64,000 nucleotides of DNA, from sequence record PX418213.1; one strand, 5' to 3'. The notes beneath the pieces are model-generated. The model saw only the letters and a program-made list of their open reading frames with translations, did no database searches and was not told the origin of the DNA. A program made the translations under genes and the position numbers. Below are positions 32,533 to 58,463 of the stretch, in pieces (positions within the stretch are counted from its first letter, which is position 1; every line of letters starts with the position of its first letter). The DNA comes from a phage.

Positions 32533-32541
32533 ATAATTCAT

Positions 32542-32727: not shown

Positions 32728-32829
32728 GCTTGTTTCCTCAGTTATTAATGAAAATGGTATCTGTGGCTGAATTCGATGTCAGCAATGATAGCTGGTTGGC
32801 TACCGGTTTACTTAACTCTACACAGAATT

Positions 32830-32912: not shown

Positions 32913-33064
32913 TAAATTTATATTGCTGACTAGGATTTTCACCTAGACGGAGTTAGCACCGTAGCGTGTAGCGGCATACCTCTCCAAACCGTGCCTCATC
33001 TTTCAATTACGGAGACAGTGTTCCTACGCGTGCCTGAATTGATTTAACAATTCTTTCAGCAAAT

Positions 33065-33140
33065 TGGACGACCGCATGAGATTTGAACTCACATAAAAAG
33101 GATTTGCAATCCTTCGCCTAAGCCATTCAGCCAACGGTCG
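33065..33140 (-). tRNA. tRNA-Cys (GCA)
   Basis: anticodon arm AAGGA-TTGCAAA-TCCTT; acceptor CGACCGT/GCGGTCG. Confidence 0.7.
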
Positions 33141-33188
33141 ATTTATCTTGTTCTGTCATGTTGCTTCTCCAGTTCAATTTATGTAATT

Positions 33189-33217
33189 ATTATACAGAAC
33201 TTTTGGAAACTAAGCAA
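33189..33217 (-). promoter_or_regulatory. T5-type promoter upstream of tRNA-Cys
   Basis: TTGCTT, 17 bp, TATAAT. Confidence 0.6.
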
Positions 33218-33497
33218 CTACATTTTTTAAGAATTTGATGCCTTTCTTTTTCTTCTTATATTTCCACGTTAATGGATTCTGTCGATTATGAACGCTTGAG
33301 ATCTTCGTCTCGTCAAAGTTCTTCAATATCATGTAATCACAAGATAATTGTTCTAGTGGAATGTGATCACCGTCAAAAGCGTATACATAGGGCTGTTGAC
33401 TAGCACGATAATGATAGACTTTGTTAATTCTACGTTTCAGCGACTTATCCGCGCAGTAAATAAAGAAGTTTTCAGGATGCATCAGCAGCTCCTTCAA
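33210..33497 (-). CDS. hypothetical protein
   Basis: 95-aa ORF. Confidence 0.5.
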   Translation of the reverse strand: MKELLMHPENFFIYCADKSLKRRINKVYHYRASQQPYVYAFDGDHIPLEQLSCDYMILKNFDETKISSVHNRQNPLTWKYKKKKKGIKFLKNVVA

Positions 33498-33499
33498 TT

Positions 33500-33574
33500 T
33501 GGTGCACCCTGTTCGTATCGAACGAACCTCTCAAGCTCTTCAGGCAAGCGCTAATCCATCTCAGCTAAAGGTGC
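33500..33574 (-). tRNA. tRNA, anticodon ambiguous (GAA-Phe or CTG)
   Basis: acceptor GCACCTT/AGGGTGC; T-arm GTTCG-TTCGATA-CGAAC; anticodon stem irregular. Confidence 0.45.
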
Positions 33575-33580
33575 AAATTT

Positions 33581-33660
33581 TGGCAAACCTACTAGGACTC
33601 GAACCTAGACCGTACGGTTTTGGAGACCGACATGCTGTCCAGTAACACTCTAGGAATGCA
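33581..33660 (-). ncRNA. tRNA-like element with mismatched acceptor
   Basis: T-arm CTAGG-TTCGAGT-CCTAG, variable hairpin ACCGTACGGT, 3' TAGGTTT-G-CCA; 5' strand pairs at only 5 of 7 positions. Confidence 0.35.
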
Positions 33661-33665
33661 GGAAT

Positions 33666-33742
33666 TGGCGTCCTGTGCGGGGGTCGAACCCGCAAATCCT
33701 ACCTTGAAAGGGTAGTGACTTTACCAGTTTGTCTAACAGGAC
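33666..33742 (-). tRNA. tRNA-Glu (TTC)
   Basis: acceptor GTCCTGT/ACAGGAC; anticodon arm CTACC-CTTTCAA-GGTAG. Confidence 0.75.
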
Positions 33743-33748
33743 TTAAAT

Positions 33749-33835
33749 TGGTGGGGAAAGATGGAGTCGAACCACCCGAGTCGCAATGACAACTGATTTA
33801 CAGTCAGCTCTGCTACCACTTACAGAATATTTCCC
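33749..33835 (-). tRNA. tRNA-Tyr (GTA)
   Basis: long-arm tRNA; acceptor GGGGAAA/TTTCCCC; anticodon arm GCTGA-CTGTAAA-TCAGT. Confidence 0.7.
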
Positions 33836-33967
33836 CATATTTAGAAGTATTCAAAAAATTCTAATTTAAACACTTTTAAATATGTTTCCAAATTAGGTAA
33901 CTATTATACCAAGTTTTAAGGCACTGAGCAAGTCAAATTTTAAAGAACTTGCTCAGTGCTGTATTGG

Positions 33968-34243
33968 TTAGTCGAACTTAGGAGTGACAGTTAAGGAGAA
34001 TGGAAGTTCGAAAACTTCTTCACCCTCATTACTAACAGTAATTACACGACCTTTAAGTTCAGACATTGAAATATCAATATCAGCTTTTGCATCCGGAGCC
34101 ATGCCAGCTTCAACACATTTAGCTTTAATTTCCGGCAGAAGTTCTACATCATAGAAATAAAGCCATTCAATCTCACCTTCCCAGCCTTCCCAGGATTTAC
34201 AGATTGCACTTTCAATACCAGCTGCTATAACACGATTTTGCAT
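33968..34243 (-). CDS. hypothetical protein
   Basis: 91-aa ORF. Confidence 0.5.
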   Translation of the reverse strand: MQNRVIAAGIESAICKSWEGWEGEIEWLYFYDVELLPEIKAKCVEAGMAPDAKADIDISMSELKGRVITVSNEGEEVFELPFSLTVTPKFD

Positions 34244-34273
34244 TCATTAACTCCTTCATCAATTTATATAACT

Positions 34274-34303
34274 ATTATATCAGAAATTTAAAGCAAAAGG
34301 CAA
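34274..34303 (-). promoter_or_regulatory. T5-type sigma70 promoter
   Basis: TTGCCT, 18 bp, TATAAT. Confidence 0.5.
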
Positions 34304-34333
34304 GTACATTTTTAAAAATTCTGTTTGGAGGAG

Positions 34334-34540
34334 CTAAACTCCAGATTCTTCAGCCAAGTCTAGGCTAATAAGAGATATAGCCATAATTGCCGCTCCATGT
34401 TCTTTTTCTCCAGTCTCTTTAGCTAGAGTTATAATGTCAAGAAATTGCTTATGAAAATCTGCAACCTCTTGAGTTATACCTGCCTCAGCAATCATGCCTT
34501 TAAGCATAAAACGTTGTGCAGTAATTTCAGGATTAGCCAT
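34334..34540 (-). CDS. hypothetical protein
   Basis: 68-aa ORF. Confidence 0.45.
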   Translation of the reverse strand: MANPEITAQRFMLKGMIAEAGITQEVADFHKQFLDIITLAKETGEKEHGAAIMAISLISLDLAEESGV

Positions 34541-34700
34541 GTTGTTTCTCCAGTTTCATCTTTAATAGTCTACAAATAAAATCAATGTCTTCATCCGTGC
34601 CTAGATCTCTGTCTTCAAGAGTTGCCTTGAAGTTTTTAGTCAATTCCATGAGGATAACTTCCCTAGAACGACGTGTTGGCGGAGGTGGATGTCTATACAT
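34533..34700 (-). CDS. small hypothetical protein (55 aa)
   Basis: hand-translated MYRHPPPPTRRSREV...; AAGGAAA RBS; stop overlaps next start. Confidence 0.4.
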   Translation of the reverse strand: MYRHPPPPTRRSREVILMELTKNFKATLEDRDLGTDEDIDFICRLLKMKLEKQHG

Positions 34701-34715
34701 CTTATTTCCTTAATT

Positions 34716-34792
34716 TGGTAGGGGTGGTGGGATTCGAACCCACAAAACCTGAATTTTAAGTCCAGTACCTATGCCAATTCGATTACACCCCC
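34716..34792 (-). tRNA. atypical tRNA, anticodon TAA (Leu codon) but class-I length
   Basis: 77 nt; acceptor GGGGGTG/CACCCCT; D-loop GAATTGG; anticodon arm CTGGA-CTTAAAA-TTCAG; no long variable arm. Confidence 0.5.
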
Positions 34793-34893
34793 ATGTAATC
34801 AGTTTATTAGTTGATACATATTATAGCCTAGTGAAAATCCTACTACTAGTCCCACAAACCAACCAATATAATAATCTTTTAGTTTCACAGGTA

Positions 34894-35079
34894 TTATCCT
34901 CTTTCAATATCTAGAGAAATACCACAGTTAGGATTAATACCTGTACCCTTGCAATTTGGGCAAATCCATATATTGCAAAAAGTATCTCCTGCTTCTGCAT
35001 CAGAACTTTCACCAATTCCCCTACACTCAGGGCAGGCGCATTCTTCTAGCTCTTGCTTGAGTTCTTGAAACTTGGACAT
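34894..35079 (-). CDS. small zinc-ribbon-like protein
   Basis: 61 aa; CPECRG...CPNCKG. Confidence 0.5.
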   Translation of the reverse strand: MSKFQELKQELEECACPECRGIGESSDAEAGDTFCNIWICPNCKGTGINPNCGISLDIERG

Positions 35080-35088
35080 ATAGTCTCC

Positions 35089-35277
35089 TTAGTTAATTAC
35101 TTTTGAGGCTTCTAAAGCATTAACGTAGTAAACATCTTCTACATTATACATATAGTCTACTACTTTGTCCATAGCATGGAGTTCGGATGTAGCCTTTACT
35201 AGTCTGTACCCTTGTTTAAACTCGTCCGAACGTTCTCTATCTTGTGCAAATTTAACAGAAACTATGAATAATTCCAT
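35089..35277 (-). CDS. hypothetical protein
   Basis: 62-aa ORF. Confidence 0.45.
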   Translation of the reverse strand: MELFIVSVKFAQDRERSDEFKQGYRLVKATSELHAMDKVVDYMYNVEDVYYVNALEASKVIN

Positions 35278-35296
35278 TAATTGTCCTTATTTAATT

Positions 35297-35374
35297 TGGT
35301 GGCTCCCCGAGGATTCGAACCTACGTACCTTCCGGTTATGAGCCGGGTGCTCATACCATATGAGCTTGAGAACC
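35297..35374 (-). tRNA. tRNA, anticodon CAT (Met/Ile2)
   Basis: acceptor GGTTCTC/GGGAGCC with G-U pairs; loop CTCATAA; T-stem has mismatches. Confidence 0.5.
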
Positions 35375-35380
35375 AAAATC

Positions 35381-35469
35381 TGGCGGAAGAAGTGGGAATC
35401 GAACCCACAAGGCTATATTTCAAACCGACAGATTAGCAATCTGCTGCAATACCGTTATGCTATTCTTCC
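35381..35469 (-). tRNA. tRNA-Ser (GCT)
   Basis: 89 nt long-arm tRNA; acceptor GGAAGAA/TTCTTCC; anticodon arm GCAGA-TTGCTAA-TCTGT. Confidence 0.65.
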
Positions 35470-35484
35470 GAATTTATAAGATAT

Positions 35485-35513
35485 ATTATATTAGAAATTT
35501 AGCTTCATAGCAA
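35485..35513 (-). promoter_or_regulatory. T5-type promoter upstream of tRNA-Ser(GCT)
   Basis: TTGCTA, 17 bp, TATAAT. Confidence 0.6.
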
Positions 35514-36060
35514 GAAAATTTTTCAAGTTTTCGGTAGACATCTCATCCATATCTACGGGAGAAACAAAGCCGTTTAATTTTCTAGCAAATTTTTCACCTG
35601 CAGGGTCATTATCCCCAACAGCTACCAATTTAAAAGGTAGTAATTTCAGTTGCTTTAATAATGCTTTTCCTGGAGAAGAACCCAACATTGCCAGGGCTGG
35701 ATAACCAGCGTTATGTAGCGCCACTGCCTTAAATACAGACTCAGCAATCAATACTACTTTTTCATCTCCATTGAGAGTTTCTAGTCCCCATACACACTGG
35801 GTAGTAGAATAAGTAAAATATTTAGCTTCAAAGGGGCACTTACCATGACCTTTTGGAGCAGAAGGATTATAAGTTTGATAGCCCCTCAACATCCCAGAGA
35901 AGTCATACAACGGGACTGTTAGCCATCCTTCCGGACTTAACCAGCAATGATATTTATCTGTATCAAATCCTCTAGATAAGAGGTGCTGTGTTAGCTCATC
36001 AACATTCATATTTGGTTCCTCTCTCAAATTTATAGATATATTATACTGAGAATTTAGCAT
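35491..36060 (-). CDS. Toprim-domain protein (primase-like fragment)
   Basis: VLIAESVFKAVAL...VAVGDNDPAGEKF resembles DnaG-type Toprim E...DxD motifs; only 189 aa. Confidence 0.55.
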   Translation of the reverse strand: MLNSQYNISINLREEPNMNVDELTQHLLSRGFDTDKYHCWLSPEGWLTVPLYDFSGMLRGYQTYNPSAPKGHGKCPFEAKYFTYSTTQCVWGLETLNGDEKVVLIAESVFKAVALHNAGYPALAMLGSSPGKALLKQLKLLPFKLVAVGDNDPAGEKFARKLNGFVSPVDMDEMSTENLKNFLAMKLNF

Positions 36061-36068
36061 TCAAGCAA
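36040..36068 (-). promoter_or_regulatory. T5-type strong sigma70 promoter
   Basis: TTGCTT, 17 bp, TATAAT. Confidence 0.6.
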
Positions 36069-36184
36069 TCAAATTTTTTAACTTTTTAGAGGAAAATCAT
36101 AGGGCACTTAAGGGTAGCAGATAAGTGGTGAGGACCAAAATTTGTGACCCCACTAAAAATTCAGGGGCAATTTTTAAAGACCCC

Positions 36185-36213
36185 TTGACATTTTCGCTGG
36201 GGTAGTGTAAAGT
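36185..36213 (+). promoter_or_regulatory. sigma70-type promoter for plus-strand three-gene module
   Basis: TTGACA (36185-36190), 17-bp spacer, TAAAGT; AGGAGG RBS before 36266. Confidence 0.4.
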
Positions 36214-36265
36214 ATATGTTATGGATGAGTGATCAAAGAGACACACATTTTCTATATACTAGGAG

Positions 36266-37261
36266 GTGTCAAAAATGACAGAAGAAGTAGCTAAGAGTCC
36301 TGAGACCGTCGCTAGCGTTGCAGCAGAACTGCACCGTCACGAGGAATCAGATAAGAAAAAGTGGGAGAAGGTCAGAGCCTACGAAGAAAAACATCGTGAA
36401 CACGATGATGAAGAAGATGACGATGATGAACATTGTCATAAATATGGAAAACATAAAATGCAAGAACCAGTAAACGTATTTACTAGTGGCTTCCCTGGCC
36501 TACTGGGTGGTTACCCAGCAAACGCAGGTGCTTTCGGTGGTGAAGGTATGGGACTATTCGGAGCTATCCTAATCGGTGCTCTATTAACAGGCGGATTCGG
36601 TGGATTCGGTGGATTCGGTGGACGTGGTATAGTTGGTGAAGGTACCGCAGTTGATGCAGTACTTCAGAACCAAGATACCGCTAGTATTCTAGCAGCTATT
36701 AACACTACTCGTACAGAAGCTAATCAGGGTACTGGGGCTGTTTTAAGCGCAGTTAACAATGGTTTTAGCCAGACATCCCAAAACCAGAGCCGTGATACTC
36801 AGTCTGTACTAACTACGATCTATGGTACAGGTGCTAATCTGTCTAATCAGATCTGCCAGGAAACTCGCAATGTTATTCAGGGTCAGTTCGATCTTTCTCG
36901 CCAGATTGATCAATCTTTCGCAGCTAATCAGATAGCTCGTGCACAAGATAAGTTTGATTCTGCACAGATCGCTTTCCAGCAGACTTTACAAACTAATAAC
37001 CAGTTTGCCGCTGTTCAGGCTCAGATGTGTGCTAACCAGAACTCTCTGGAACGTCAGATCGCTGAATGTTGCTGTGAACTTCAGACTGCGATCGCTGGTG
37101 TAACTACTGCGCGTATCCAGGATGAGTTAGACGCATGTCGCCTACGTGAAGCAATCGCTGCGGGTAGCGGTGCTAACGGTCAGGTAATTAATCAAATCGC
37201 TTTAAGTCTTGGTGCTATCACTCAGACTCTGGCTGGTCTGCAGGCTAAACTGCCGGCTTAA
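36266..37261 (+). CDS. glycine-zipper membrane protein with Q/N-rich coiled-coil-like tail
   Basis: 331 aa; His/acid-rich N-terminus (HREHDDEEDDDDEHCH); GLFGAILIGALLTGGFGGFGGFGG; long Q/N/S/T-rich region with ECCCE. Confidence 0.6.
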   Translation: MSKMTEEVAKSPETVASVAAELHRHEESDKKKWEKVRAYEEKHREHDDEEDDDDEHCHKYGKHKMQEPVNVFTSGFPGLLGGYPANAGAFGGEGMGLFGAILIGALLTGGFGGFGGFGGRGIVGEGTAVDAVLQNQDTASILAAINTTRTEANQGTGAVLSAVNNGFSQTSQNQSRDTQSVLTTIYGTGANLSNQICQETRNVIQGQFDLSRQIDQSFAANQIARAQDKFDSAQIAFQQTLQTNNQFAAVQAQMCANQNSLERQIAECCCELQTAIAGVTTARIQDELDACRLREAIAAGSGANGQVINQIALSLGAITQTLAGLQAKLPA

Positions 37262-37282
37262 TATTAAGGGGAGGAGCCCATT

Positions 37283-37699
37283 ATGAGTAAATATGGTTTT
37301 GTAAATAACGGACTTAATCAAAGTATGGGCTCCCAGCAGCCCGTTCCGGGTCTGGATAACCCCTACTTACAACAGTTGCAACAGCGTTTAGCAGAAGCGC
37401 AACAGATGCAGCAACAACTCCAGCAAAACCCTGGAAGTGTAAGTCCTATGCAAATGATGCAGCAAATGAGCGGGCAGTCGCAAATGTCTCAACAAATGCA
37501 GCAACAGATGCCGCAGCAGCAAGTTCAACAACAAACCCAACAACCGCAGGTTTCTGCGGAAGGACAGGCAGTACTAGCCCTTTTCGAAGACTTCGCAAAG
37601 ACAGAGGATGGGAAACAGCTTGTATCACTTATGGGTAAGTTTAATAGCTTCTGCCAAAGCCAAGTTGCAAAAGCTCAAAATGGTGGTAATAACTCCTAA
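37283..37699 (+). CDS. Gln/Met-rich low-complexity protein
   Basis: 138 aa; central QQLQQRLAEAQQMQQQLQQ...QQMQQQMPQQQVQQQTQQPQ; GGAGG RBS. Confidence 0.55.
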   Translation: MSKYGFVNNGLNQSMGSQQPVPGLDNPYLQQLQQRLAEAQQMQQQLQQNPGSVSPMQMMQQMSGQSQMSQQMQQQMPQQQVQQQTQQPQVSAEGQAVLALFEDFAKTEDGKQLVSLMGKFNSFCQSQVAKAQNGGNNS

Positions 37700-37708
37700 G
37701 GAGAAATT

Positions 37709-37903
37709 ATGTGTTGCAGAAAATCTGTTTCGTGCTGCCCAATGCCTGTAGCACGTTGTTGCTCTCCAGCAATGTTTACGCAAATACCGGCGTTCAATCC
37801 GTTTGCCTTTAAGCCTACTCTTATCCTGCCCCCTAGAGTGGATTTTCAGTCAAGATTGGCCTCCCGTATGGGTGGTTGCTGTACACCGAGAGTGTGGTTC
37901 TAA
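37709..37903 (+). CDS. small Cys-doublet-rich peptide
   Basis: 64 aa with four CC doublets (MCCRKSVSCCPMPVARCC...GGCC); AGGAGA RBS; followed by terminator. Confidence 0.45.
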   Translation: MCCRKSVSCCPMPVARCCSPAMFTQIPAFNPFAFKPTLILPPRVDFQSRLASRMGGCCTPRVWF

Positions 37904-37913
37904 ACCAAAAACA

Positions 37914-37950
37914 AAAGCCCCTGCCGAAAGGTAAGGGGCTTTTTCTTTTG
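37914..37950 (+). terminator. rho-independent terminator
   Basis: AGCCCCT...AGGGGCT hairpin followed by TTTTTCTTTT. Confidence 0.65.
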
Positions 37951-37959
37951 CCTTAAATA

Positions 37960-37994
37960 CAGAAAAGCCCGCGCTCTCGGAGGAAACGCGGGCT
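37960..37994 (-). terminator. rho-independent terminator for SPFH gene
   Basis: GCCCGCG...CGCGGGC hairpin with U-run on minus strand. Confidence 0.6.
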
Positions 37995-38018
37995 TGGTTC
38001 GAAGATTACGTGTAACTA

Positions 38019-38966
38019 TTACTTGTTACGCATATCCATGATCATTTGACCATCGTAGCCAGTACCTACCACAGTCTGAGGTACACCACCTTGATATTTC
38101 TGAGCACGAATCATCTCAACTTCCAGTTGTTTCCAACGAATCATCTCAGGAGTAATAGTACGTTGCAATGCGGCGTTAGCTTCAGCTTCTTTCTTAGCTG
38201 CGTACAGTTTAGCATCTGCGTCACGTTCATTAGCAATAGCTTGGTTGTTGCGAGCTTCACGATCTGCTTCTGCTTGTTTAACCTTCTGCTGTGCTTCTTG
38301 TTCAACACGAGCCAGTTCAGCTTTTGCAGCATTAACTTGCTCTTCACGAACTTTGGTATTCTGTACCTGCTCCATGATTACCGGTGGCAAAGTAATATCC
38401 TGAAGGAACACCTGCTTAACTGTGTAACCATATGGGCGTGCATACTCTTCAACTTCCTGTTGAATTGCAGTTTGCAATTGAGCCTGAATTTTAGCATCAA
38501 ACAAATCTTGTGCTTTAGGTACAGACTTACCAAACTCACGAATAGTAGACAGTAATTTTTCAGTTACATATTTGTCTAACGCTTGATCCTGAGTACCTGC
38601 ATTAATACGGTTAATCGGTGCCTTAGAACCATCAAACTGCAACATAACAGTCAGGTCAACAGTGGATTTAAACTTATCCTGACTAGGAACCTGAAGTTTA
38701 TCTAATTTTAGAGCAATATCTTTTGTACTAAAAGTATCGAAAGAAGCAAAAGGATTTACAATATGAAAGCCGGGTAATACTGGATTAGGGTCTACTTTAC
38801 CCAGGAAAGTCTGGGTTTTAACAGTACCGTCTTGAACAACAGTATAGGAGTTAAGGGCCAGAACTAAACCTACCAAACCAACTGCAGCACCAATACCCCA
38901 ACGTTTGATATTACGCATCAATTTTTGCTCATAAGTCAGTTCTTTAGTGTTTTTAGTAGCAAACAT
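38019..38966 (-). CDS. SPFH/band-7 (prohibitin/HflKC-like) membrane protein
   Basis: 315 aa; N-terminal TM (WGIGAAVGLVGLVLAL); band-7-like core; C-terminal coiled coil. Confidence 0.65.
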   Translation of the reverse strand: MFATKNTKELTYEQKLMRNIKRWGIGAAVGLVGLVLALNSYTVVQDGTVKTQTFLGKVDPNPVLPGFHIVNPFASFDTFSTKDIALKLDKLQVPSQDKFKSTVDLTVMLQFDGSKAPINRINAGTQDQALDKYVTEKLLSTIREFGKSVPKAQDLFDAKIQAQLQTAIQQEVEEYARPYGYTVKQVFLQDITLPPVIMEQVQNTKVREEQVNAAKAELARVEQEAQQKVKQAEADREARNNQAIANERDADAKLYAAKKEAEANAALQRTITPEMIRWKQLEVEMIRAQKYQGGVPQTVVGTGYDGQMIMDMRNK

Positions 38967-39000
38967 ATATTTCCTTTGTTTTAGTTACAGTTAATAAAAT

Positions 39001-39075
39001 TGGCCGAGGTGACAGGATTCGAACCTGCATAAAGGAATTTAGAAGACTCCTGCCTCTCCCTTAGACTACACCCCG
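39001..39075 (-). tRNA. tRNA-Arg (TCT)
   Basis: acceptor CGGGGTG/CACCTCG; anticodon arm GGAGT-CTTCTAA-ATTCC. Confidence 0.7.
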
Positions 39076-51906: not shown

Positions 51907-52128
51907 TTATTCAATTACTTTAGCTCTAGCTACTTCTTTTAATAGAATATCTATGGAGGTGCTCAGCTCATTATAATTGAATGGTTTATTTGGATTTGAG
52001 GTTACAATTTTCCACGCTAGGGTTGTCTTAGGACTTTCTTCCCCTTCCTTACGTGTAATCATATTAGCAGCACTCAGTGAAGTACGATGTATTTTAGTTT
52101 TACGGCTCATATGAACGACGTTTCCCAT
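51907..52128 (-). CDS. hypothetical protein
   Basis: ORF 51907..52197 trimmed to Met with GGAAGG RBS. Confidence 0.45.
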   Translation of the reverse strand: MGNVVHMSRKTKIHRTSLSAANMITRKEGEESPKTTLAWKIVTSNPNKPFNYNELSTSIDILLKEVARAKVIE

Positions 52129-52129
52129 A

Positions 52130-52891
52130 TTACACCTTCCCCATGTCTTTAAAAATATCATAGAATGCTTTAGACTCAACAGAACGAACGTTATCAATCA
52201 ATTCGATCATTGAGAATGGGGCATTTTCGTATTTCTCATAGACTTCCATAAGGAGTGCTAGACCTGAGTCACCTTTAATGTCTTTCTGAGCTATATCTCC
52301 GCAGATAATTAAACGGCAGTCTTGTCCTACACGAGTTAGGAGACAAATCATTGCCTCAACGGAAATATTCTGAGCTTCATCGACAATTACATAGGAGTTG
52401 TTGAAAGTTCTGCCACGAGCATGTTCGATAGCCAAAAATTTAATTTTCTGACGTTCGACATATCCTTTATATGCATGATCGCCAATGGCCCATTTCATAC
52501 CATCAGCTATTGGCTCCAACCAAGGCTCTAGCTTTTCTGCTAGATCACCAGGAAGCATACCAAGAGACTTACCTAGAGGTTCATTAGGACGTACGAGAAT
52601 CACTTGCTCAATATCTGAGTGAATGTCTACGAGTTCCTGAGCTGCAAGAACGGACGGAATAAAGGTTTTACCAGTACCTGGCTCACCGATACCCACAGTC
52701 ACTGTGTTGTTCTTGATCATATTGATATATGATTTTTGCTCGCGGTTTTTACCTACTAGGGATTTAGCAACTGGGTTAGCGTAATCATTAGAAAAATCAG
52801 CCTGAATTACGTTATTCTCATATTTGTTGCCACGCTTTCTTGAACCATTGCGGTTCTCTCTTTTTTGACGTGCTTTTCCCATAAATAACAC
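52130..52891 (-). CDS. phoH: PhoH-like ATPase
   Basis: 253 aa; Walker A GEPGTGKT, Walker B VIVDEAQN. Confidence 0.8.
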   Translation of the reverse strand: MLFMGKARQKRENRNGSRKRGNKYENNVIQADFSNDYANPVAKSLVGKNREQKSYINMIKNNTVTVGIGEPGTGKTFIPSVLAAQELVDIHSDIEQVILVRPNEPLGKSLGMLPGDLAEKLEPWLEPIADGMKWAIGDHAYKGYVERQKIKFLAIEHARGRTFNNSYVIVDEAQNISVEAMICLLTRVGQDCRLIICGDIAQKDIKGDSGLALLMEVYEKYENAPFSMIELIDNVRSVESKAFYDIFKDMGKV

Positions 52892-52955
52892 TCCTATAGT
52901 GTACTTCGCTAACAGAGGATCAACAAAAAGATCTTGTTTATCAACTTACAAATAT

Positions 52956-52984
52956 ATTATACCAATATATACAGTAAAAAGCAA
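52956..52984 (-). promoter_or_regulatory. T5-type promoter for phoH, divergent from nrdD promoter
   Basis: TTGCTT, 17 bp, TATAAT. Confidence 0.6.
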
Positions 52985-53176
52985 CTACAATTTTAAATAA
53001 GCCTATGATATTGCATTTAAATAAAAAATTTGCTTGCTTTTAACGTGAGATGTGTGATAATAGATAATCATTTTATATCGCGTACACGAGTGCGTGATTA
53101 TACAATTTTTAATAGAGATTGACAAATAAAATTTTTTGACTCAGATCATGTTACAGAACTTTATAGTAAAATATTG

Positions 53177-53205
53177 TTGACATCCGCCCTCGAATGAGTT
53201 ATAAT
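53177..53205 (+). promoter_or_regulatory. sigma70-type promoter for nrdD
   Basis: TTGACA, 17-bp spacer, TATAAT; further TTGACA/TTGCTT elements upstream. Confidence 0.6.
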
Positions 53206-53234
53206 AGTAGTCTTAGTTAGAAAAGGAGAGTATA

Positions 53235-55109
53235 ATGAATCGCAATGAAGAACTAAAGTATAAAGAAATGCAGGCGTTAATTAGAAACTGCAAAGAGATT
53301 ATCGAAGGGTCAGCAGATGAAGAGCTGCTGTTTAATAATGCCAATAAACCCTCAGAACGTTTCCCTACACAAAGGGATATGCTTGCAGGTGAATTGAGTA
53401 AGTATCTAATTCTAGAAGAAATGCCAATTCAGATTCGAAATGCTCATATGATTGGGGATATTCATTTCCATGATGCCGATTATGCTGCATTAGGCATGAC
53501 TAACTGTTGTCTGGTAGCTCTGGAAGATATGTTGAAGAATGGTATGAAGGTTGGTAATGCTGAAATTAGCACTCCAAACTCTATCACTACTGCGGCGGCT
53601 ATTACTGCTCAGATTATCACTCAGGTTAGCTCCCATCAGTATGGTGGTACTTCTGTAGATCGCCTTGATGAAGTATTAGCCCCTTATGTTCGTAAATCCT
53701 ATGATAAAAATCATGCGTTTGCAAAACGTTGGACTAAGGATGAAGCCAAAGCATCCGTAATGGCTACGGAGATGACTGAAAAAGAAGTCTATGACGCTTG
53801 TCAGGGTTTAGAATATGAAATCAATACCATGTTCAACTCTAATGGTCAGAGTCCATTTATTACCTTTGGTTTTGGTCTAGGAACTTCTTGGGAAGCACGT
53901 CTAGTACAGAAAGCAATACTGAAAGTACGCATGGATGGTTTAGGTATCAATAAACGTACAGCTATCTTCCCGAAACTGGTATTTGTACTTCGTGATGGTG
54001 TTAACATGAAACCAGGAGATGTTAATTATGACATCAAGAAGTTAGCTATGAAATGTACTGCTGAACGTATGTATCCAGATTATATTAGCTATGACAAGGT
54101 TGTAGAAGTTACTGGAGACTATAAAGTTTCTATGGGCTGCCGTTCATTCCTAGCTGCTACAGAAGATGGTGAAACTGCCGGTCGTAATAACTTAGGTGTT
54201 GTTTCTGTAAACTTGCCTAGAATTGCTATCGAAGCTGAAGGAAATATTGACCTATTCTTTGATTTGCTTGAGCTACGTGTGGATACAGCATTAAAAGCGT
54301 TGGAGTGGAGAGTTGATCGCTTAAAATACATTCAAGCTAAAGCTGCACCCATCCTCTATATGTCAGGAGCCTTTGGGTTACGCTTGGGGCCTGATGAATA
54401 TGTATTCGATCATTTCTATAACCGTGCTTCTGTATCTCTAGGGTATATTGGCTGCCATGAAATGCTACAGTTCATGTTTGGCAAAGATGTAGACACAATG
54501 TCCGAGACCTGCATCAAGTTTGTTCAGCGTGTATTGCAGTACATGCGAGATAGAGTCGATCAGAAGAAGGAAGAGACTAAGTTAGGTTATAGCCTGTATG
54601 CTACACCGTCAGAGTCCCTATGCGATCGTTTTTGTCGTCTAGACCGTGAGTATTTCCCGGAGCATGAAGATATTCTGTCCAAAGGATACTACACTAACTC
54701 TCACCACCTTGATGTGGAACGTAAAGTTGCTCCCAATGTGAAATTTGATTATGAATCTAACTTTACGCCTATTGCCTCTGGTGGGTGTATTTCCTATGTA
54801 GAACTACCGGATATGAAACGATTCCCAGATGCGCTGGAATGGGTTATTAATTATGCTGCTAGTAAGGTTCATTACTTCGGTATTAATACTCCAGTGGATT
54901 CTTGTGGTAAATGTGGATTCTTAGGTGAAACAATAGCATCCGAAGATGGATTTAAGTGCCCTATCTGTGGTAATCATGACCCCGAAACTCTTGAAGTAAC
55001 TCGTCGAGTTTGTGGGTATCTTGGAAATCCGGGTGCTCGTCCATTTAACCCTGGCAAACAGCACGAGGTTATGGGCAGAGTGAAGCATCAGGATATTCGA
55101 GCTAAATAA
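53235..55109 (+). CDS. nrdD: anaerobic ribonucleoside-triphosphate reductase (class III)
   Basis: 624 aa; C-terminal Zn ribbon (CGKCG...CPICG) and glycyl-radical motif RVCGYLG. Confidence 0.85.
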   Translation: MNRNEELKYKEMQALIRNCKEIIEGSADEELLFNNANKPSERFPTQRDMLAGELSKYLILEEMPIQIRNAHMIGDIHFHDADYAALGMTNCCLVALEDMLKNGMKVGNAEISTPNSITTAAAITAQIITQVSSHQYGGTSVDRLDEVLAPYVRKSYDKNHAFAKRWTKDEAKASVMATEMTEKEVYDACQGLEYEINTMFNSNGQSPFITFGFGLGTSWEARLVQKAILKVRMDGLGINKRTAIFPKLVFVLRDGVNMKPGDVNYDIKKLAMKCTAERMYPDYISYDKVVEVTGDYKVSMGCRSFLAATEDGETAGRNNLGVVSVNLPRIAIEAEGNIDLFFDLLELRVDTALKALEWRVDRLKYIQAKAAPILYMSGAFGLRLGPDEYVFDHFYNRASVSLGYIGCHEMLQFMFGKDVDTMSETCIKFVQRVLQYMRDRVDQKKEETKLGYSLYATPSESLCDRFCRLDREYFPEHEDILSKGYYTNSHHLDVERKVAPNVKFDYESNFTPIASGGCISYVELPDMKRFPDALEWVINYAASKVHYFGINTPVDSCGKCGFLGETIASEDGFKCPICGNHDPETLEVTRRVCGYLGNPGARPFNPGKQHEVMGRVKHQDIRAK

Positions 55110-55151
55110 GCTAATCAGCCGGGTTGCTAGTCGACCTGGCTTTTATTTTAT

Positions 55152-55208: not shown

Positions 55209-55589
55209 ATGGAATTAAAGCCCTATATAGTTGAATCTACATGTGGTGGTTTCCATCTGGGTGTGGATGATATTGCTGAGGCTGTCTTTGCTGCCACAGG
55301 TGATTACTCGCACATAGAGGGTGTTGCATACCCTACCATTATTGGCGATTGGGTAGGAACAAATCTAGATGTATCTCCTTATAACCCATATTGCTTGTTT
55401 GATGAAGACAGAGATGAAGTAAAATGTAATCTTGAATTTGTGTATAATAGAGTGTTAAAAGTATACCAACGTAGCCCCAATGGGTACGAAGATATTACTT
55501 GGAGCATTAAACAGTATCTTAAAGATATATACTCTAGTTTTTCTGACGAAGACCTAGAAACAGTTGCAGTGGAGTTTAATAATGACTAA
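55209..55589 (+). CDS. hypothetical protein
   Basis: 126-aa ORF with GAGGAGAAAG RBS. Confidence 0.5.
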   Translation: MELKPYIVESTCGGFHLGVDDIAEAVFAATGDYSHIEGVAYPTIIGDWVGTNLDVSPYNPYCLFDEDRDEVKCNLEFVYNRVLKVYQRSPNGYEDITWSIKQYLKDIYSSFSDEDLETVAVEFNND

Positions 55590-55788
55590 GAATGTGAAAC
55601 ACCTTAAATATCGCTTAATTTACAATGGACGTATGGAAACAGAAGACCTAGCCCAATTAGCTATTAATTCTAATGAGGTTACAGTGCGTGCGCTGGCAAT
55701 TGAAAAGTTGCGTGCCTCTTATGAAAATCGTGTTATGGAACTAGAGGAGAAACTTTATGGCATTCTCGAAGCCGATGCTACCAGATAA
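55564..55788 (+). CDS. hypothetical protein
   Basis: 74-aa ORF. Confidence 0.45.
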   Translation: MQWSLIMTKNVKHLKYRLIYNGRMETEDLAQLAINSNEVTVRALAIEKLRASYENRVMELEEKLYGILEADATR

Positions 55789-55978
55789 TGGTTTAAATGC
55801 CGCTTTGGAAAATGCATTAATGCAGCAGTGGGAAACTGGCTATAAGGATGGTGTTGAATCCTGTGCTACTATGCTAGAAGTTATTGCTAATACCTTAATG
55901 GAGAAAGGCAATAAAGAATTAGCTGAGCTATTAGACAGTATTGGGCAAAACTTCAGAGAACAGGTGAAAAATGCGTAG
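55757..55978 (+). CDS. hypothetical protein
   Basis: 73-aa ORF. Confidence 0.45.
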   Translation: MAFSKPMLPDNGLNAALENALMQQWETGYKDGVESCATMLEVIANTLMEKGNKELAELLDSIGQNFREQVKNA

Positions 55979-56789
55979 ATTAATTATTATTAGCGGTGCA
56001 GGTTTGAGTGTTGAAAGTGGTGTACGAGCTTTTCGTACTGATACTACTAGTGGTAAAGCACTGTGGGATGACTATGATCTAGAAGAAGTATGTAATATTC
56101 ATGCCTTTCGTGGTAATTTTTATCATAAAACCCATATGTTTTACAACAAGCGTCGTGAAGAGCTAAAAACTGTTGAACCCAATCTTGCGCATTTGCGTAT
56201 TGGTGAATGGTATAAACAATATCCAGGTCAAGTAGTAAACTTGACTACCAACGTTGATGACCTTATTGAGCGTGCTGGAGTTCCACATAGTGACATTCTG
56301 CACATTCACGGATATTTAAAAGAGGTTGTTGTAGCTGATAGCTACAATAGTAGCAATAAACGGATTATTGATGTAGGATACAATTCTGTTGATCCAGATG
56401 ATTATAAATGGGTTAAACCTAATGTAATCTTCTTTGGAGAGCATGCTCCTGCATACGCAGAAATGTATAATGTTTTTGATGGTATTACCAGTCAAGATAT
56501 GATCATTGTGGTTGGTTGCTCTAACCAAGTAATTAACTTCTACTGGGAATTATTTCCTGTTCTTAATTTGACTGCTGCGAAACTTATGGTTGTTAACTAT
56601 TATGATAGTGCCCTAGCGGCGGAACCGGGCTATCAAGGTATGACTCGTAGTGAGATGTACCAGCTGGAAGAACGTGGTATCCCTTACTGGAGTAAAGGTG
56701 CAGTAGATGCTTTCAGTGATCCTGATTTTATTGCTCGTGTAGAAGCTCATTTAGAGGGTAGACCTTATGTGTCGAGAAGCAAGAAATAA
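55971..56789 (+). CDS. Sir2-family NAD-binding protein lacking Zn-ribbon cysteines
   Basis: 272 aa; ISGAGLSVESGVRAFR, PNLAHLRIGEW, TTNVDDLIERAG, HIHGYL, KPNVIFFGE match Sir2/CobB blocks; no CxxC pairs. Confidence 0.7.
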   Translation: MRRLIIISGAGLSVESGVRAFRTDTTSGKALWDDYDLEEVCNIHAFRGNFYHKTHMFYNKRREELKTVEPNLAHLRIGEWYKQYPGQVVNLTTNVDDLIERAGVPHSDILHIHGYLKEVVVADSYNSSNKRIIDVGYNSVDPDDYKWVKPNVIFFGEHAPAYAEMYNVFDGITSQDMIIVVGCSNQVINFYWELFPVLNLTAAKLMVVNYYDSALAAEPGYQGMTRSEMYQLEERGIPYWSKGAVDAFSDPDFIARVEAHLEGRPYVSRSKK

Positions 56790-56964
56790 TGAATGGGATA
56801 TTTTTATAACTGAGTCTGGCACTTGGTGTTATAGGTTTGCCTACAGGTTTGCCTACAGGTTTCCTAGTGTAAGAAAACGGTTGGGATACGCATATAAAAT
56901 TATCTATACTATGGATAATATATGGTTATCCTCTGGAGATGAGGAGAAACAGGTATGTCCATAG
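56767..56964 (+). CDS. hypothetical protein
   Basis: 65-aa ORF. Confidence 0.35.
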   Translation: MCREARNNEWDIFITESGTWCYRFAYRFAYRFPSVRKRLGYAYKIIYTMDNIWLSSGDEEKQVCP

Positions 56965-57137
56965 TTAAATCTGTGTATACACATCCAGATGATATATTTG
57001 TATGGGCGGATGGTAGTTGGTGCTATCGCTGTGAGCTGTGGGAAATGGATTATAAATCCGATGACTATGGTGTTATATATGTTGATACGGTTGAGTATGA
57101 TACGTTCTTAGAAAGGAACAGAAATGGAAATAAGTAA
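56955..57137 (+). CDS. hypothetical protein
   Basis: 60-aa ORF. Confidence 0.4.
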   Translation: MSIVKSVYTHPDDIFVWADGSWCYRCELWEMDYKSDDYGVIYVDTVEYDTFLERNRNGNK

Positions 57138-57630
57138 TACTCCAATTATTTTTCTAGACATTGATGGGGTGCTCAATTCGAGCATCTCCCACCATCATGC
57201 ACCTGACGATGAGAAGATTTTCTTTGGAAGTGATTGGGTTTTCAAACCGCTTCTCAAGGCTTTTCAGGACTTTATTCGTCCTTCTCCAATAATGATTGTT
57301 GGAGTATCATCTTGGTTCTCTGTCAGAAATGAGATGGAGAACGTTCGGATTATGACCGGATTAGGTCTTATCGATCGTTTTCTTGGTACAACGGATTTTA
57401 CTGGTGGTGGATTATCTAGGGGTAATTCTGTTCTTCGTTTCGTCGAAAAGCATAAGCTCAAACATTGGTGTGTACTTGATGATGCGGGTGCTATGATGTA
57501 TCAGTATCCAACGGTTATAGTCAACGGTAGAACTGGGATAAATCTTCAAGATTTAAAAGCTGTTAGCTATATGCTAGAATTTAGCCCAGATCTTGAAATG
57601 TGTAAATCCTTACAACAATTTAAGGTGTAA
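57124..57630 (+). CDS. HAD-like hydrolase
   Basis: 168 aa; N-terminal IIFLDIDGVLN (DxDG) and downstream VLDDAG acidic motif. Confidence 0.55.
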   Translation: MEISNTPIIFLDIDGVLNSSISHHHAPDDEKIFFGSDWVFKPLLKAFQDFIRPSPIMIVGVSSWFSVRNEMENVRIMTGLGLIDRFLGTTDFTGGGLSRGNSVLRFVEKHKLKHWCVLDDAGAMMYQYPTVIVNGRTGINLQDLKAVSYMLEFSPDLEMCKSLQQFKV

Positions 57631-57632
57631 AT

Positions 57633-58061
57633 ATGTTCAATAATGTATTCTCTAAAGAAGCTAACCCAATTTTGGTTAACTTTTGGCGTACTCTCCCGGC
57701 TAGCCTGTATAATGAGGCTATTAACTCCTTGAAAATATGGTGTGAGAATAATGAAATCTCCTTTGCTTTTAAAGATGATATTGATGAGGGCCCCTGTATT
57801 GGTTTAACTGTGCAGGTAGAGGATGGTCTTGAAGAGATTGTCGGCTGGAAAGAGTTGGATGAAATGGGCTTAGTTTTTGCGTTAAACTATAAGCTGTTTA
57901 TGCCTAACAAACACCGTATTGCTATTAATTATAAAACCGGTGAATCTCCTGGTTTTCAGGTTAATGAACGTTATGGTTGGTCTTACTCACCAGAAGAAGT
58001 AAATGAGGGGATTCAGAAACTTCGACGTTTCGGGTATATAATCCCAGGTTTAACTGCTTAA
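57633..58061 (+). CDS. hypothetical protein, paralog A
   Basis: 142 aa; shares PCIG, MGL..ALN and IPGL/VPGL blocks with next gene. Confidence 0.5.
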   Translation: MFNNVFSKEANPILVNFWRTLPASLYNEAINSLKIWCENNEISFAFKDDIDEGPCIGLTVQVEDGLEEIVGWKELDEMGLVFALNYKLFMPNKHRIAINYKTGESPGFQVNERYGWSYSPEEVNEGIQKLRRFGYIIPGLTA

Positions 58062-58070
58062 GGAGGCAGA

Positions 58071-58463
58071 ATGGAACAAGTATATTGGCGTCAGATTGAC
58101 CCTAGTTTGGTGAAACGTGCGGAGAAGCTGCTACAACGTTGGTTGGGGGTAAGACAAGCCTCCTTCACTTTTCCGGAACAGCAAATAGATGACCCCTGCA
58201 TTGGTGTTTTCCTGTCTGGATATGCCGGGGAATGGGAATTGGATTGGAATGAATTGTCTGCTATGGGCTTGATTGTTGCCCTAAACTTCTCTATATTCCA
58301 TCCACGTGGTTTGGCCATATGTCGTGTGCCTGATGACGGTTGTTCGCCCCATCTTTTACAGGTGGAAGATGATATTTGGGAGTACACTCCAGATATTCTC
58401 AAAGAGGCTAAAGAACAATTAAACCGTGTTGGGATATATGTTCCGGGATTAAATGATGAATAA
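58071..58463 (+). CDS. hypothetical protein, paralog B
   Basis: 130 aa; same motif blocks as 57633-58061. Confidence 0.5.
   Translation: MEQVYWRQIDPSLVKRAEKLLQRWLGVRQASFTFPEQQIDDPCIGVFLSGYAGEWELDWNELSAMGLIVALNFSIFHPRGLAICRVPDDGCSPHLLQVEDDIWEYTPDILKEAKEQLNRVGIYVPGLNDE

What the first reader, a model, noticed from the sequence alone, without database searches (positions are those of the whole stretch)
55971..57630. Phage Sir2-like protein without zinc ribbon, adjacent to a HAD-like hydrolase
ORF 55971-56789 carries the conserved Sir2/CobB NAD-binding blocks but lacks the four zinc-ribbon cysteines of canonical sirtuins, like the Sir2 domains in bacterial anti-phage systems that act as NADases. 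Two small ORFs downstream sits a HAD-like phosphatase (57124-57630). On a phage, this could deplete or remodel host NAD+, or counter NAD-dependent defence.
Basis: partly seen in the sequence, partly recalled or inferred. Interest (0 to 1): 0.75.

Follow-up and report, generated by a model that had tools for sequence, protein, structure and literature searches.

The report
T5-type phage sirtuin plus HAD phosphatase
This is the long-annotated Sir2-like gene of T5-type phages and its HAD phosphatase partner: a real, conserved pair already described in the literature, closer to ordinary CobB-type sirtuins than to bacterial defence NADases, and with a biochemical role that nobody has yet tested.

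Summary
ORF 55971-56789 is a true sirtuin (Pfam SIR2, E 5e-25). It has no cysteine where the zinc ribbon should be. ORF 57124-57630 is a HAD_SAK_2 phosphatase with all catalytic motifs intact.

The window is a T5-like phage. The two genes are orthologues of T5.102 and T5.105, and they sit in one tightly packed early block between nrdD and the origin-binding helicase.

None of this is new:
- The gene has been annotated since the T5 genome was published.
- Zinc-ligand loss in phage Sir2/CobB was noted in 2016.
- The sirtuin + "Swiss-army-knife" HAD neighbourhood was described in 2022 from phage SP15, which is 94% identical to this region. That paper predicted a KptA-like role in NAD+-dependent RNA repair.

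One apparently unreported extra emerged. Homologues of this HAD sit in NARP1-type NAD+-rebuilding operons of phages that have no Sir2. That suggests the HAD acts on a phosphorylated ADP-ribose rather than on RNA ends.

The function remains untested. Verdict: already known, moderate-to-low interest.

The parts
55117..55151 (+). Terminator-like hairpin plus T-run after nrdD. It marks the upstream edge of the gene block that holds Sir2 and HAD.
   Evidence: 10-bp stem, 6 GC pairs, T-tail. T5 has a terminator and then a promoter annotated at the equivalent place.
55209..55589 (+). First gene of the block: T5.100-like protein of 126 aa, function unknown (phrog_11748).
   Evidence: Homologues lie between HAD and Sir2 in divergent Demerecviridae contigs, but the gene was found in only 14 of the 61 loci scanned.
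55564..55788 (+). Small ORF of unknown function (phrog_5236). Relatives annotate it from an internal ATG.
55757..55978 (+). Small ORF of unknown function (phrog_5827). Its end overlaps the Sir2 start by 8 nt.
55971..56789 (+). Sir2-like protein, orthologue of T5.102 (94.5% amino-acid identity). It is a class III-derived sirtuin without zinc ligands.
55995..56036 (+). NAD+-binding loop, residues G9 to R22 (GAGLSVESGVRAFR).
   Evidence: Invariant G9 A10 G11 S13 S16 G17 F21 R22. Aligned to CobB GAGISAESGIRTFR.
56142..56153 (+). Y58-N-K-R61, the class III sirtuin Y-x-x-R motif (CobB Y92/R95). This motif binds an anionic group.
   Evidence: Alignment to CobB. Y58, R61 and R62 are invariant.
56244..56261 (+). 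TTNVDD block, residues 92-97. Catalytic N94 and D96 are kept; the canonical Gln is replaced by T93.
56307..56312 (+). Catalytic H113-G114.
   Evidence: Invariant. Aligned with the CobB catalytic HG.
56313..56429 (+). Small-domain segment, residues 115-153, equivalent to the zinc ribbon. It contains no cysteine and is predicted as a three-stranded sheet.
   Evidence: In the AF2 model the strands are 114-122, 131-134 and 147-152, with pLDDT 88-97.
56767..56964 (+). Small ORF, phrog_5116 paralogue 1. It contains a 12-nt tandem repeat (x2.9) at 56833-56866.
56955..57137 (+). Small ORF, phrog_5116 paralogue 2. It overlaps the HAD start by 14 nt.
57124..57630 (+). HAD_SAK_2 phosphatase, the T5.105 orthologue (D12, D14, S62/S63, R99, D119/D120).
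57633..58061 (+). DUF7415 protein, paralogue 1 (T5.106-like).
58071..58463 (+). DUF7415 protein, paralogue 2 (T5.107-like). Last sizeable gene of the block.
   Evidence: T5 has a terminator annotated just after it.

Best explanation
Identity (near certain): these are the T5.102 and T5.105 orthologues of a T5-like phage. One is a class III (CobB/SIRT5-type)-derived sirtuin that has lost its zinc ligands. The other is a small HAD_SAK_2 phosphatase. Both are expressed from one tightly packed early gene block.

Mechanism (inferred, not shown): the sirtuin is not a free NADase. It uses NAD+ in a substrate-dependent ADP-ribosyl transfer to an anionic acceptor held by the conserved Y58-x-x-R61 motif. 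The most likely acceptor is a phosphate on a damaged nucleic-acid end, as in KptA/Tpt1 and as proposed by Iyer et al. 2022. The reaction would release nicotinamide and a phosphorylated ADP-ribose, either ADP-ribose 1'',2''-cyclic phosphate or ADP-ribose 1''-phosphate.

The HAD phosphatase then removes that phosphate to give plain ADP-ribose. Alternatively it trims the terminal RNA phosphate.

The pair would therefore be an NAD+-dependent phosphate-removal ("healing") module, acting within the NAD+/RNA arms race between phage and host.
For: Identity:
- The region is 92-96% identical in DNA to many Tequintavirus and Epseptimavirus genomes, and the gene order matches.
- All catalytic residues of both enzymes are invariant.

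Canonical-sirtuin architecture: CobB is the top hit by sequence (E 2e-17) and by structure.

Clade-specific changes suggest an altered substrate site. Zinc is lost, the Q of QNxD becomes T, and the P of VxP becomes N. More distant jumbo-phage homologues keep CxxC...CxxC, TQN and VxP.

Context of the Sir2 clade:
- In about 13 of 59 IMG/VR loci, the 50-63% identical orthologue is embedded in a cluster of T4-type RNA ligase, cREC cyclic-phosphate domain, P-loop kinase, Sir2, DNA ligase and MazG.
- In 31 of 59 loci it is linked to the HAD.
- The HAD-Sir2 pairing survives an order swap (HAD-x-Sir2) in divergent lineages. It also survives loss of the intervening ORFs.

Context of the HAD: homologues at 38-41% identity directly precede or overlap a prs-like + NAPRTase-like (NARP1-type) operon, in four sequence clusters. 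NARP1 operons are known to carry accessory enzymes that convert ADPR-1''P or cADPR to ADPR. ADPR-PP also decays to an ADPR cyclic phosphate.

A zinc-less Sir2 homologue lies next to NAMPT, which recycles nicotinamide.

The published prediction is for exactly this neighbourhood.
Against: - No experiment on any member of this clade was found.
- T5-type genomes show no RNA ligase, polynucleotide kinase, 2H or cREC gene (annotation; homology search). A healed RNA end would have no phage-encoded sealer.
- The whole Sir2 clade is acidic (pI 4.6-5.9, net charge -6 to -20). That is unlike typical RNA-end enzymes.
- The FGE block and the acyl-lysine tunnel positions are largely retained, which fits an ordinary deacylase equally well.
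- Some T5-like lineages keep Sir2 without the HAD (L054, L056). ChuuTotoro keeps the HAD without Sir2. The two enzymes are therefore not obligate partners.
- Most HAD-Sir2 co-occurrences lie in one syntenic slot of one virus family, so they amount to few independent events.
Confidence: 0.4

Rival explanations
1. Ordinary protein lysine deacylase. The phage sirtuin works like CobB/SIRT5, removing acetyl or succinyl groups from host or phage proteins early in infection. The HAD would be an unrelated neighbour.
For: - Closest relatives by sequence and fold are CobB, Sir2Af, SIRT5 and SIRT2.
- The catalytic His/Asn/Asp, the FGE block and the class III Y-x-x-R motif (succinyl/malonyl recognition in SIRT5 and CobB; established knowledge) are all invariant.
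- This is the standard database annotation and the view of Skliros et al. 2016.
Against: - NCBIfam CobB equivalog models score far below their cutoffs (100.8 against 243 bits; 90 against 320).
- Zinc ligands are lost, and the peptide-binding VxP proline is replaced (V187-I-N189) across the clade.
- It does not explain the tight embedding among RNA ligase, cREC and kinase genes.
- It does not explain why the HAD link persists through gene-order changes.
Confidence: 0.25
2. NAD+/ADP-ribose metabolite module for counter-defence, with no nucleic-acid substrate. Sir2 and HAD would together convert or neutralise NAD+-derived small molecules made by host immunity, such as ADPR-1''-phosphate from RES-type systems or ADPR-based signals. 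They might even help restore NAD+.
For: - HAD homologues are built into NARP1-type operons in phages that lack Sir2.
- Accessory NARP1 enzymes that feed ADPR into the pathway are experimentally established: Macro Adpp and RyDEP.
- A Sir2 homologue lies beside NAMPT.
- Both proteins are acidic, which fits small-molecule substrates.
- T5 needs NAD+ for its own ligase.
Against: - The window and T5 positions 1-85 kb have no Adps or Namat, so ADPR made by the HAD has no known phage route back to NAD+.
- No sirtuin is known to act on such substrates.
- The RNA-ligase context of the Sir2 orthologues is left unexplained.
Confidence: 0.2
3. Phage NADase. The zinc-less Sir2 would hydrolyse or phosphorolyse NAD+ outright to deplete or remodel the host pool, as defence Sir2 domains do.
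For: - Zinc ligands are lost, as they are in defence SIR2 domains (established knowledge).
- The retained N94 and H113 are also the residues that defence NADases use.
- A downstream phosphatase could process an ADPR-phosphate product.
Against: - No PADLOC match.
- Structural similarity to ThsA, SIR2-HerA, PsSIR2 and Avs5 is much lower than to deacylase sirtuins.
- The small domain and the substrate tunnel are retained.
- The protein is standalone, with no sensor or oligomerisation partner.
- T5's own DNA ligase depends on NAD+.
- Related phages pair the gene with NAD+ salvage rather than with NAD+ destruction.
Confidence: 0.05

Closest known systems
T5.102 / T5.105 of phage T5, and the sirtuin + "Swiss-army-knife-like" HAD neighbourhood typified by Escherichia phage SP15 (Iyer, Burroughs, Anantharaman & Aravind 2022, Viruses 14:1977)
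   Same: Orthologous genes. Sir2 is 94.5% identical to T5 in amino acids. The region is 93.9% identical in DNA to SP15. Gene order and flanks are the same: nrdD upstream and the origin-binding helicase downstream.
   Different: Only minor differences: a 12-nt repeat expansion in one small ORF, and a variable number of small ORFs between the two genes among relatives.
E. coli CobB and other class III sirtuins (SIRT5)
   Same: Rossmann core, NAD+ loop, N/D/H catalytic set, FGE and the Y-x-x-R motif. Foldseek gives E 1e-17 with TM-score 0.71 (query-normalised) and 0.85 (target-normalised).
   Different: No zinc ligands. Q becomes T in QNxD. P becomes N in VxP. There is a 4-residue insertion in the cofactor loop and a C-terminal insertion of about 25 residues. 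Scores fall far below the NCBIfam equivalog cutoffs.
KptA/Tpt1 RNA 2'-phosphotransferase (functional analogue proposed in the literature)
   Same: NAD+-dependent, nicotinamide-releasing chemistry. Orthologues of this Sir2 are associated with RNA ligase, kinase and cyclic-phosphate-processing genes.
   Different: Unrelated fold: KptA belongs to the ART superfamily. The activity is untested. T5-type phages lack the ligase and kinase partners.
Defence SIR2 NADases (ThsA, DSR1/2, SIR2-HerA/Nezha, pAgo-SIR2, Avs5)
   Same: Sirtuin superfamily with no zinc site.
Adpp, the Macro-domain ADPR-1''-phosphate phosphatase of NARP1-AP operons (Osterman et al. 2026 preprint)
   Same: HAD homologues occupy an equivalent accessory position next to Adps/Namat-like genes. 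Both are phosphatases by prediction or by assay.
   Different: Unrelated fold (HAD versus Macro). The HAD's substrate is untested. In the window the HAD accompanies Sir2, not NARP1.

Membership tests
Sirtuin superfamily (Pfam SIR2 PF02146) | Profile match above the curated cutoff | tested here: met
   88.8 bits against a cutoff of 24, E 5.4e-25, model positions 1-178 of 180.
Sirtuin superfamily (Pfam SIR2 PF02146) | NAD+-binding GAGxS...FR loop and catalytic Asn/Asp/His | tested here: met
   G9 A10 G11 S13 F21 R22 N94 D96 H113 are invariant in 45 homologues and aligned to CobB.
Sirtuin superfamily (Pfam SIR2 PF02146) | Zinc-ribbon small domain with CxxC...CxxC ligands | tested here: not met
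   No Cys in residues 115-153, and 0-2 Cys across 120 homologues. The fold of the module is retained in the AF2 model.
CobB / class III protein deacylase | Y-x-x-R acidic-acyl recognition motif | tested here: met
   Y58 and R61 align with CobB Y92 and R95 and are invariant.
CobB / class III protein deacylase | Score above the NCBIfam equivalog cutoffs | tested here: not met
   Best scores are 100.8 bits against a cutoff of 243, and 90.2 against 320.
CobB / class III protein deacylase | Peptide-binding G-x-S-x-x-V-x-P strand | tested here: not met
   CobB VYP aligns with V187-I188-N189. The Pro is kept only in distant jumbo-phage homologues.
CobB / class III protein deacylase | NAD+-dependent deacylation of acyl-lysine | not testable with these tools
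   Needs an enzyme assay.
Defence-type SIR2 NADase (ThsA, DSR, SIR2-HerA, pAgo-SIR2) | Match to defence-system HMMs | tested here: not met
   No PADLOC hit at E <= 0.1.
Defence-type SIR2 NADase (ThsA, DSR, SIR2-HerA, pAgo-SIR2) | Closest structural neighbours are defence SIR2 domains | tested here: not met
Defence-type SIR2 NADase (ThsA, DSR, SIR2-HerA, pAgo-SIR2) | Fused or adjacent sensor/partner (SLOG, HerA, TIR ThsB, pAgo, STAND) | tested here: not met
   The protein is a standalone 272 aa. The neighbours are small ORFs, the HAD and DUF7415 proteins.
SirTM (macrodomain-linked ADP-ribosylating sirtuins) | Operon partner with a Macro domain | tested here: not met
Phage "RNA-repair" sirtuin clade of Iyer et al. 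2022 (type 3, SP15-like) | Orthology to the SP15/T5 sirtuin, with a HAD_SAK-type phosphatase in the conserved neighbourhood | tested here: met
   93.9% DNA identity to SP15 across the region. The HAD is 334 nt downstream on the same strand.
Phage "RNA-repair" sirtuin clade of Iyer et al. 2022 (type 3, SP15-like) | RNA end-healing/sealing partners (RNA ligase, kinase, cREC/2H) in the same genome | tested here: not met
   These genes are present beside orthologues in roughly 145-kb phages. They are absent from every T5-like locus searched and from the T5 annotation for positions 1-85 kb.
Phage "RNA-repair" sirtuin clade of Iyer et al. 2022 (type 3, SP15-like) | KptA-like removal of RNA 2'-phosphate using NAD+ | not testable with these tools
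   A prediction only. No experimental paper was found.
HAD superfamily phosphatase (Pfam HAD_SAK_2 PF18143) | Profile match above the cutoff, plus motif I DxDxV, motif II S/T and motif IV DD | tested here: met
   73 bits against a cutoff of 27.5. D12, D14, S62/S63 and D119/D120 are invariant, and R99 is invariant as the likely motif III basic residue. The AF2 model has pLDDT 94.8, with weak Foldseek matches to HAD phosphatases such as KdsC/YrbI and MDP-1 (best E 3e-3).
NARP1-AP accessory phosphatase (Adpp) | Macro-domain protein inside an Adps-Namat operon that dephosphorylates ADPR-1''P | tested here: not met
   The window protein is a HAD, not a Macro domain. The window has no Adps or Namat. 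Only the HAD's homologues occupy that operon position.

The most novel reading that the evidence does not exclude
The HAD_SAK_2 family may be an unrecognised ADP-ribose-phosphate phosphatase, a non-homologous counterpart of the Macro enzyme Adpp. Phages would plug it either into NARP1 NAD+-rebuilding operons or next to a zinc-less sirtuin.

On this reading the T5 Sir2-HAD pair is an NAD+-centred counter-defence module rather than an RNA-repair or deacetylase system. At the extreme, the sirtuin's Y-x-x-R pocket would bind the 1''-phosphate of ADPR-1''P, and the enzyme would run its nicotinamide-exchange chemistry to re-form NAD+.
Probability: 0.15. Interest if true: 0.75.

Novelty: already known. 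Interest (0 to 1): 0.3.

Why it matters
Sir2-like genes occur in about 1,000 of 50,697 sequenced phage genomes, yet I found no biochemical or genetic test of any of them. NAD+ has since become a central battleground between bacteria and phages.

T5-type phages are easy to manipulate genetically, so the question can be tested directly. The new contextual clue, that this HAD family also sits in NARP1-type operons, narrows the candidate substrates to phosphorylated ADP-ribose species. It also suggests a simple experiment: test whether the HAD can replace Adpp against aRES defence.

As a discovery in this window, however, the finding adds nothing to the 2005, 2016 and 2022 literature.

Tried and rejected
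2. Experimental literature on T5.102/T5.105 or on phage sirtuins. Nothing was found.
3. A solved relative of the HAD. None by sequence or by profile. Foldseek gave only weak matches (best E 3e-3) to HAD phosphatases such as KdsC/YrbI and MDP-1, so the substrate class cannot be read from structure.
4. Domain fusions of HAD_SAK_2 as a functional clue. Among the 150 best of 8,593 representatives, nearly all are standalone. The long ones are tandem HAD repeats, plus one fusion to a calcineurin-like phosphoesterase. There were no kinase, ligase, Macro or Nudix fusions. Uninformative.
5. A conserved trio of T5.100-like protein + Sir2 + HAD. The T5.100-like ORF does lie between HAD and Sir2 in reversed-order lineages. 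However, it was found in only 14 of the 61 loci scanned. It is also unrelated to the ORF upstream of the HAD in NARP1-type operons (hhalign probability 0.2%). Rejected.
6. Adps/Namat in the window or in T5. None found.
7. Sir2 in ChuuTotoro. None in the whole genome.
8. Net charge as a test for nucleic-acid binding. The clade is acidic. This is only weak evidence and is not decisive.
Full report
**What the window is.** The region is 92-96% identical in DNA to many T5-like phages (Demerecviridae): Salmonella phage ABTNLsp4, Citrobacter phage CitS1, and Escherichia phages slur09, SP15 and fp01. In all, 448 phage records match. The window also carries a T5-style array of 24 tRNA genes. The genes of interest lie in the slot PhoH | nrdD ... 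origin-binding helicase, exactly as in T5.

**Checking the observation.**
- ORF 55971-56789 (272 aa) matches Pfam SIR2 at E 5.4e-25 and 88.8 bits, against a cutoff of 24. It matches phrog_2162 at E 1.8e-121.
- Its best solved relative by sequence is E. coli CobB (1s5p, E 2.2e-17). That alignment shows GAGLSVESGVRAFR, TTNVDD, HIHG and FFGE opposite the CobB blocks.
- The protein has only two cysteines, C41 and C183. Neither falls in residues 115-153, which align with CobB's zinc module.
- Zinc loss is a property of the whole clade. In 120 homologues the segment holds 0 Cys (68 sequences), 1 Cys (49) or 2 Cys (4), while its length stays near 39 residues.
- ORF 57124-57630 (168 aa) matches Pfam HAD_SAK_2 at E 4e-20. 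It has invariant FLDIDGVLN, SS, R-G and DD motifs.
- Two small paralogous ORFs (phrog_5116) lie between the two genes.

**Anatomy of the block.**
- A terminator-like hairpin follows nrdD at 55117-55141.
- From 55209 to 58463, nine same-strand ORFs abut or overlap. Sir2 overlaps its upstream ORF by 8 nt, and the HAD overlaps its upstream ORF by 14 nt.
- T5 annotates a promoter before this block and a terminator after it. It names the genes T5.100 to T5.107, with T5.102 as Sir2.
- The block ends with two DUF7415 paralogues that are 34% identical to each other.

**What kind of sirtuin it is.** The AF2 model is confident (pLDDT 89). It keeps the small domain as a three-stranded sheet, with strands 114-122, 131-134 and 147-152.
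- Foldseek against the PDB puts CobB first (E 1.4e-17; TM-score 0.71 query-normalised, 0.84-0.85 target-normalised). Sir2Af, Sir2Tm, SIRT5 and SIRT2 follow.
- PADLOC defence models give no hit.
- NCBIfam CobB models do hit, but far below their cutoffs.

Aligning with full-length CobB shows that the class III motif Y92-x-x-R95 corresponds to invariant Y58 and R61. Three further changes mark the T5/rV5-type clade:
- T replaces Q in QNxD.
- N replaces P in the peptide-binding VxP strand.
- The cofactor loop carries a 4-residue insertion.

More distant homologues from jumbo phages (L059, L061) still have CxxC...CxxC, TQN and VxP. The protein is therefore a derived offshoot of class III sirtuins with a remodelled substrate site. 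It is not a relative of the immune NADases.

**It is already in the literature.**
- T5.102 carries a Sir2 annotation in the T5 reference record.
- Skliros et al. 2016 reported the absence of zinc ligands in the Sir2/CobB of Vibrio phages and KVP40. They listed T5 among the carriers.
- Iyer et al. [quoted passage not shown] They propose a KptA-like, NAD+-dependent removal of RNA 2'-phosphates. SP15 is 93.9% identical to this region.
- I found no experimental study.

**Independent test of the contexts.** I fetched 59 IMG/VR loci that encode relatives of the Sir2 and searched their flanks.
- The HAD lies within 10 kb, on the same strand, in 31 loci. All the T5-like ones are included, plus L033 (Pectobacterium phage My1-type) and L058.
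- About 13 loci from phages of roughly 145 kb instead show a tight cluster: T4-type RNA ligase (PF09511), cREC (PF20274), P-loop kinase, Sir2, ATP-dependent DNA ligase and MazG.
- The two contexts never coincide.
- About 15 loci have neither. These include T5-like L054 and L056, which keep Sir2 but lack the HAD.
- In divergent Demerecviridae contigs the order is reversed to HAD-x-Sir2.
- In others the two ORFs overlap directly.

The link is therefore maintained through rearrangement. It is largely confined to one virus family, however, so it represents few independent events.

**A context that the papers I read do not mention.** The nearest HAD relatives outside T5-like phages are 38-41% identical, with all catalytic motifs kept.
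- They sit immediately upstream of a prs-like gene, and in one case overlap it. An NAPRTase-family gene of 594-596 aa follows.
- This arrangement occurs in Serratia phage ChuuTotoro and in three metagenomic contigs. Together these represent four sequence clusters, down to 45% mutual identity.
- That gene pair has the architecture of NARP1 (Adps + Namat), the phage pathway that rebuilds NAD+ from ADP-ribose and nicotinamide. I did not test its identity beyond homology and operon form.
- ChuuTotoro has no Sir2 anywhere in its genome. The window and T5 positions 1-85 kb have no Adps or Namat.
- Recent preprints show that accessory genes inside NARP1 operons convert defence-derived ADPR-1''-phosphate (Macro Adpp) or cyclic ADPR signals (RyDEP) into ADP-ribose.
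- None of the NARP1 papers I read mentions a HAD. The term PF18143 does not occur in the searchable library.
- Separately, a zinc-less Sir2 homologue in a T4-like contig lies beside a true NAMPT gene.

**Most likely mechanism.** The reading that covers the most contexts has three parts:
- The sirtuin performs a substrate-dependent ADP-ribosyl transfer to a phosphate-bearing acceptor held by Y58 and R61. This is KptA-like and follows Iyer et al.
- The reaction releases nicotinamide and a phosphorylated ADP-ribose.
- The HAD dephosphorylates that product, or a terminal RNA phosphate.

This accounts for the RNA-ligase/cREC/kinase neighbourhood of the orthologues, the HAD link, the HAD's second home in NARP1-type operons, and the NAMPT neighbour. 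None of these steps has been demonstrated.

Several points count against it:
- T5-type phages have no RNA ligase, kinase, 2H or cREC gene.
- The Sir2 clade is uniformly acidic, with pI 4.6-5.9.
- The FGE and tunnel positions still look like those of a deacylase.

I put this model at about 0.4. Against it I put about 0.25 for a plain deacylase, 0.2 for a purely metabolite-level NAD+/ADPR counter-defence role, and 0.05 for a free NADase. Three things disfavour the free NADase: the canonical architecture, the absence of any defence-type similarity, and T5's own NAD-dependent DNA ligase about 8 kb downstream.

**Verdict.** The feature is real and accurately described, but it is an already known and already interpreted gene pair of T5-like phages. 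The comparison with defence NADases is not supported. What remains open, and testable, is the actual biochemistry. The HAD-NARP1 association found here gives that question a sharper first experiment.

Noticed in passing
window 57124-57630; L001 5113-5619; L002 3113-3619; T5.105 in L063 7589-8095: The HAD phosphatase is labelled "Sir2 (NAD-dependent deacetylase)" in many phage records, including RefSeq T5, slur09 and CitS1. The cause is that phrog_18062, a 92-residue family covering the HAD's C-terminal half, carries the Sir2 name. This is an annotation error spread by PHROG-based pipelines.
   Followed up: yes
L068 6001-9217 (Serratia phage ChuuTotoro ON287369 35888-39104); L065 6001-9569; L069 6001-9519; L081 472-3978: HAD_SAK_2 homologues sit directly upstream of a prs-like + NAPRTase-like (NARP1-type) gene pair, and in one case overlap it. 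These phages lack Sir2. The link is not mentioned in the NARP1 papers I read. It suggests a third kind of NARP1 accessory enzyme.
   Followed up: partly
window 56833-56866, and the Sir2-HAD spacer in L003-L025: A 12-nt unit (AGGTTTGCCTAC) is repeated 2.9 times inside small ORF 56767-56964, giving the peptide FAYRFAYRF. Among T5-like phages the spacer between Sir2 and the HAD ranges from more than 400 nt, through about 310 nt as in this window and about 150 nt, to a direct overlap of the two genes. That fits a varying number of phrog_5116 paralogues.
   Followed up: partly
L060 8057-10705: In a T4-like 120-kb metagenomic contig, a zinc-less Sir2 homologue (42% identity in the best tblastn segment) lies 466 nt downstream of a genuine NAMPT gene (NAMPT_N + NAPRTase). 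Endonuclease VII, nrdD and an nrdG-like radical-SAM (Fer4_12) gene follow.
   Followed up: partly
L059 10001-10708; L061 9977-10705: Sir2 homologues from a 279-kb and a 608-kb phage contig still carry the CxxC...CxxC zinc ligands, TQN and VxP. Zinc loss therefore happened within the phage lineage.
   Followed up: partly
window 57633-58463: Two tandem DUF7415 paralogues (34% identical; T5.106/T5.107-like) close the block. Their function is unknown. A single copy follows the HAD in the My1-type phage (L082).
   Followed up: no
window 26362-39075 (- strand): An array of 24 tRNA genes, as in T5. This is relevant background for any RNA-repair or tRNA-nuclease hypothesis.
   Followed up: no
phage records MG065692 (C13), MG065666 (A12a), MG065639 (A150): Three records named "Campylobacter phage" carry Sir2 genes 95%, 57% and 52% identical to this one. 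Their genome sizes are typical of T5-like and rV5-like coliphages. The host labels look doubtful.
   Followed up: no
window 52000-54000: GC skew changes sign near 52-53 kb. This coincides with the switch from leftward genes (PhoH side) to rightward genes (nrdD onward).
   Followed up: no
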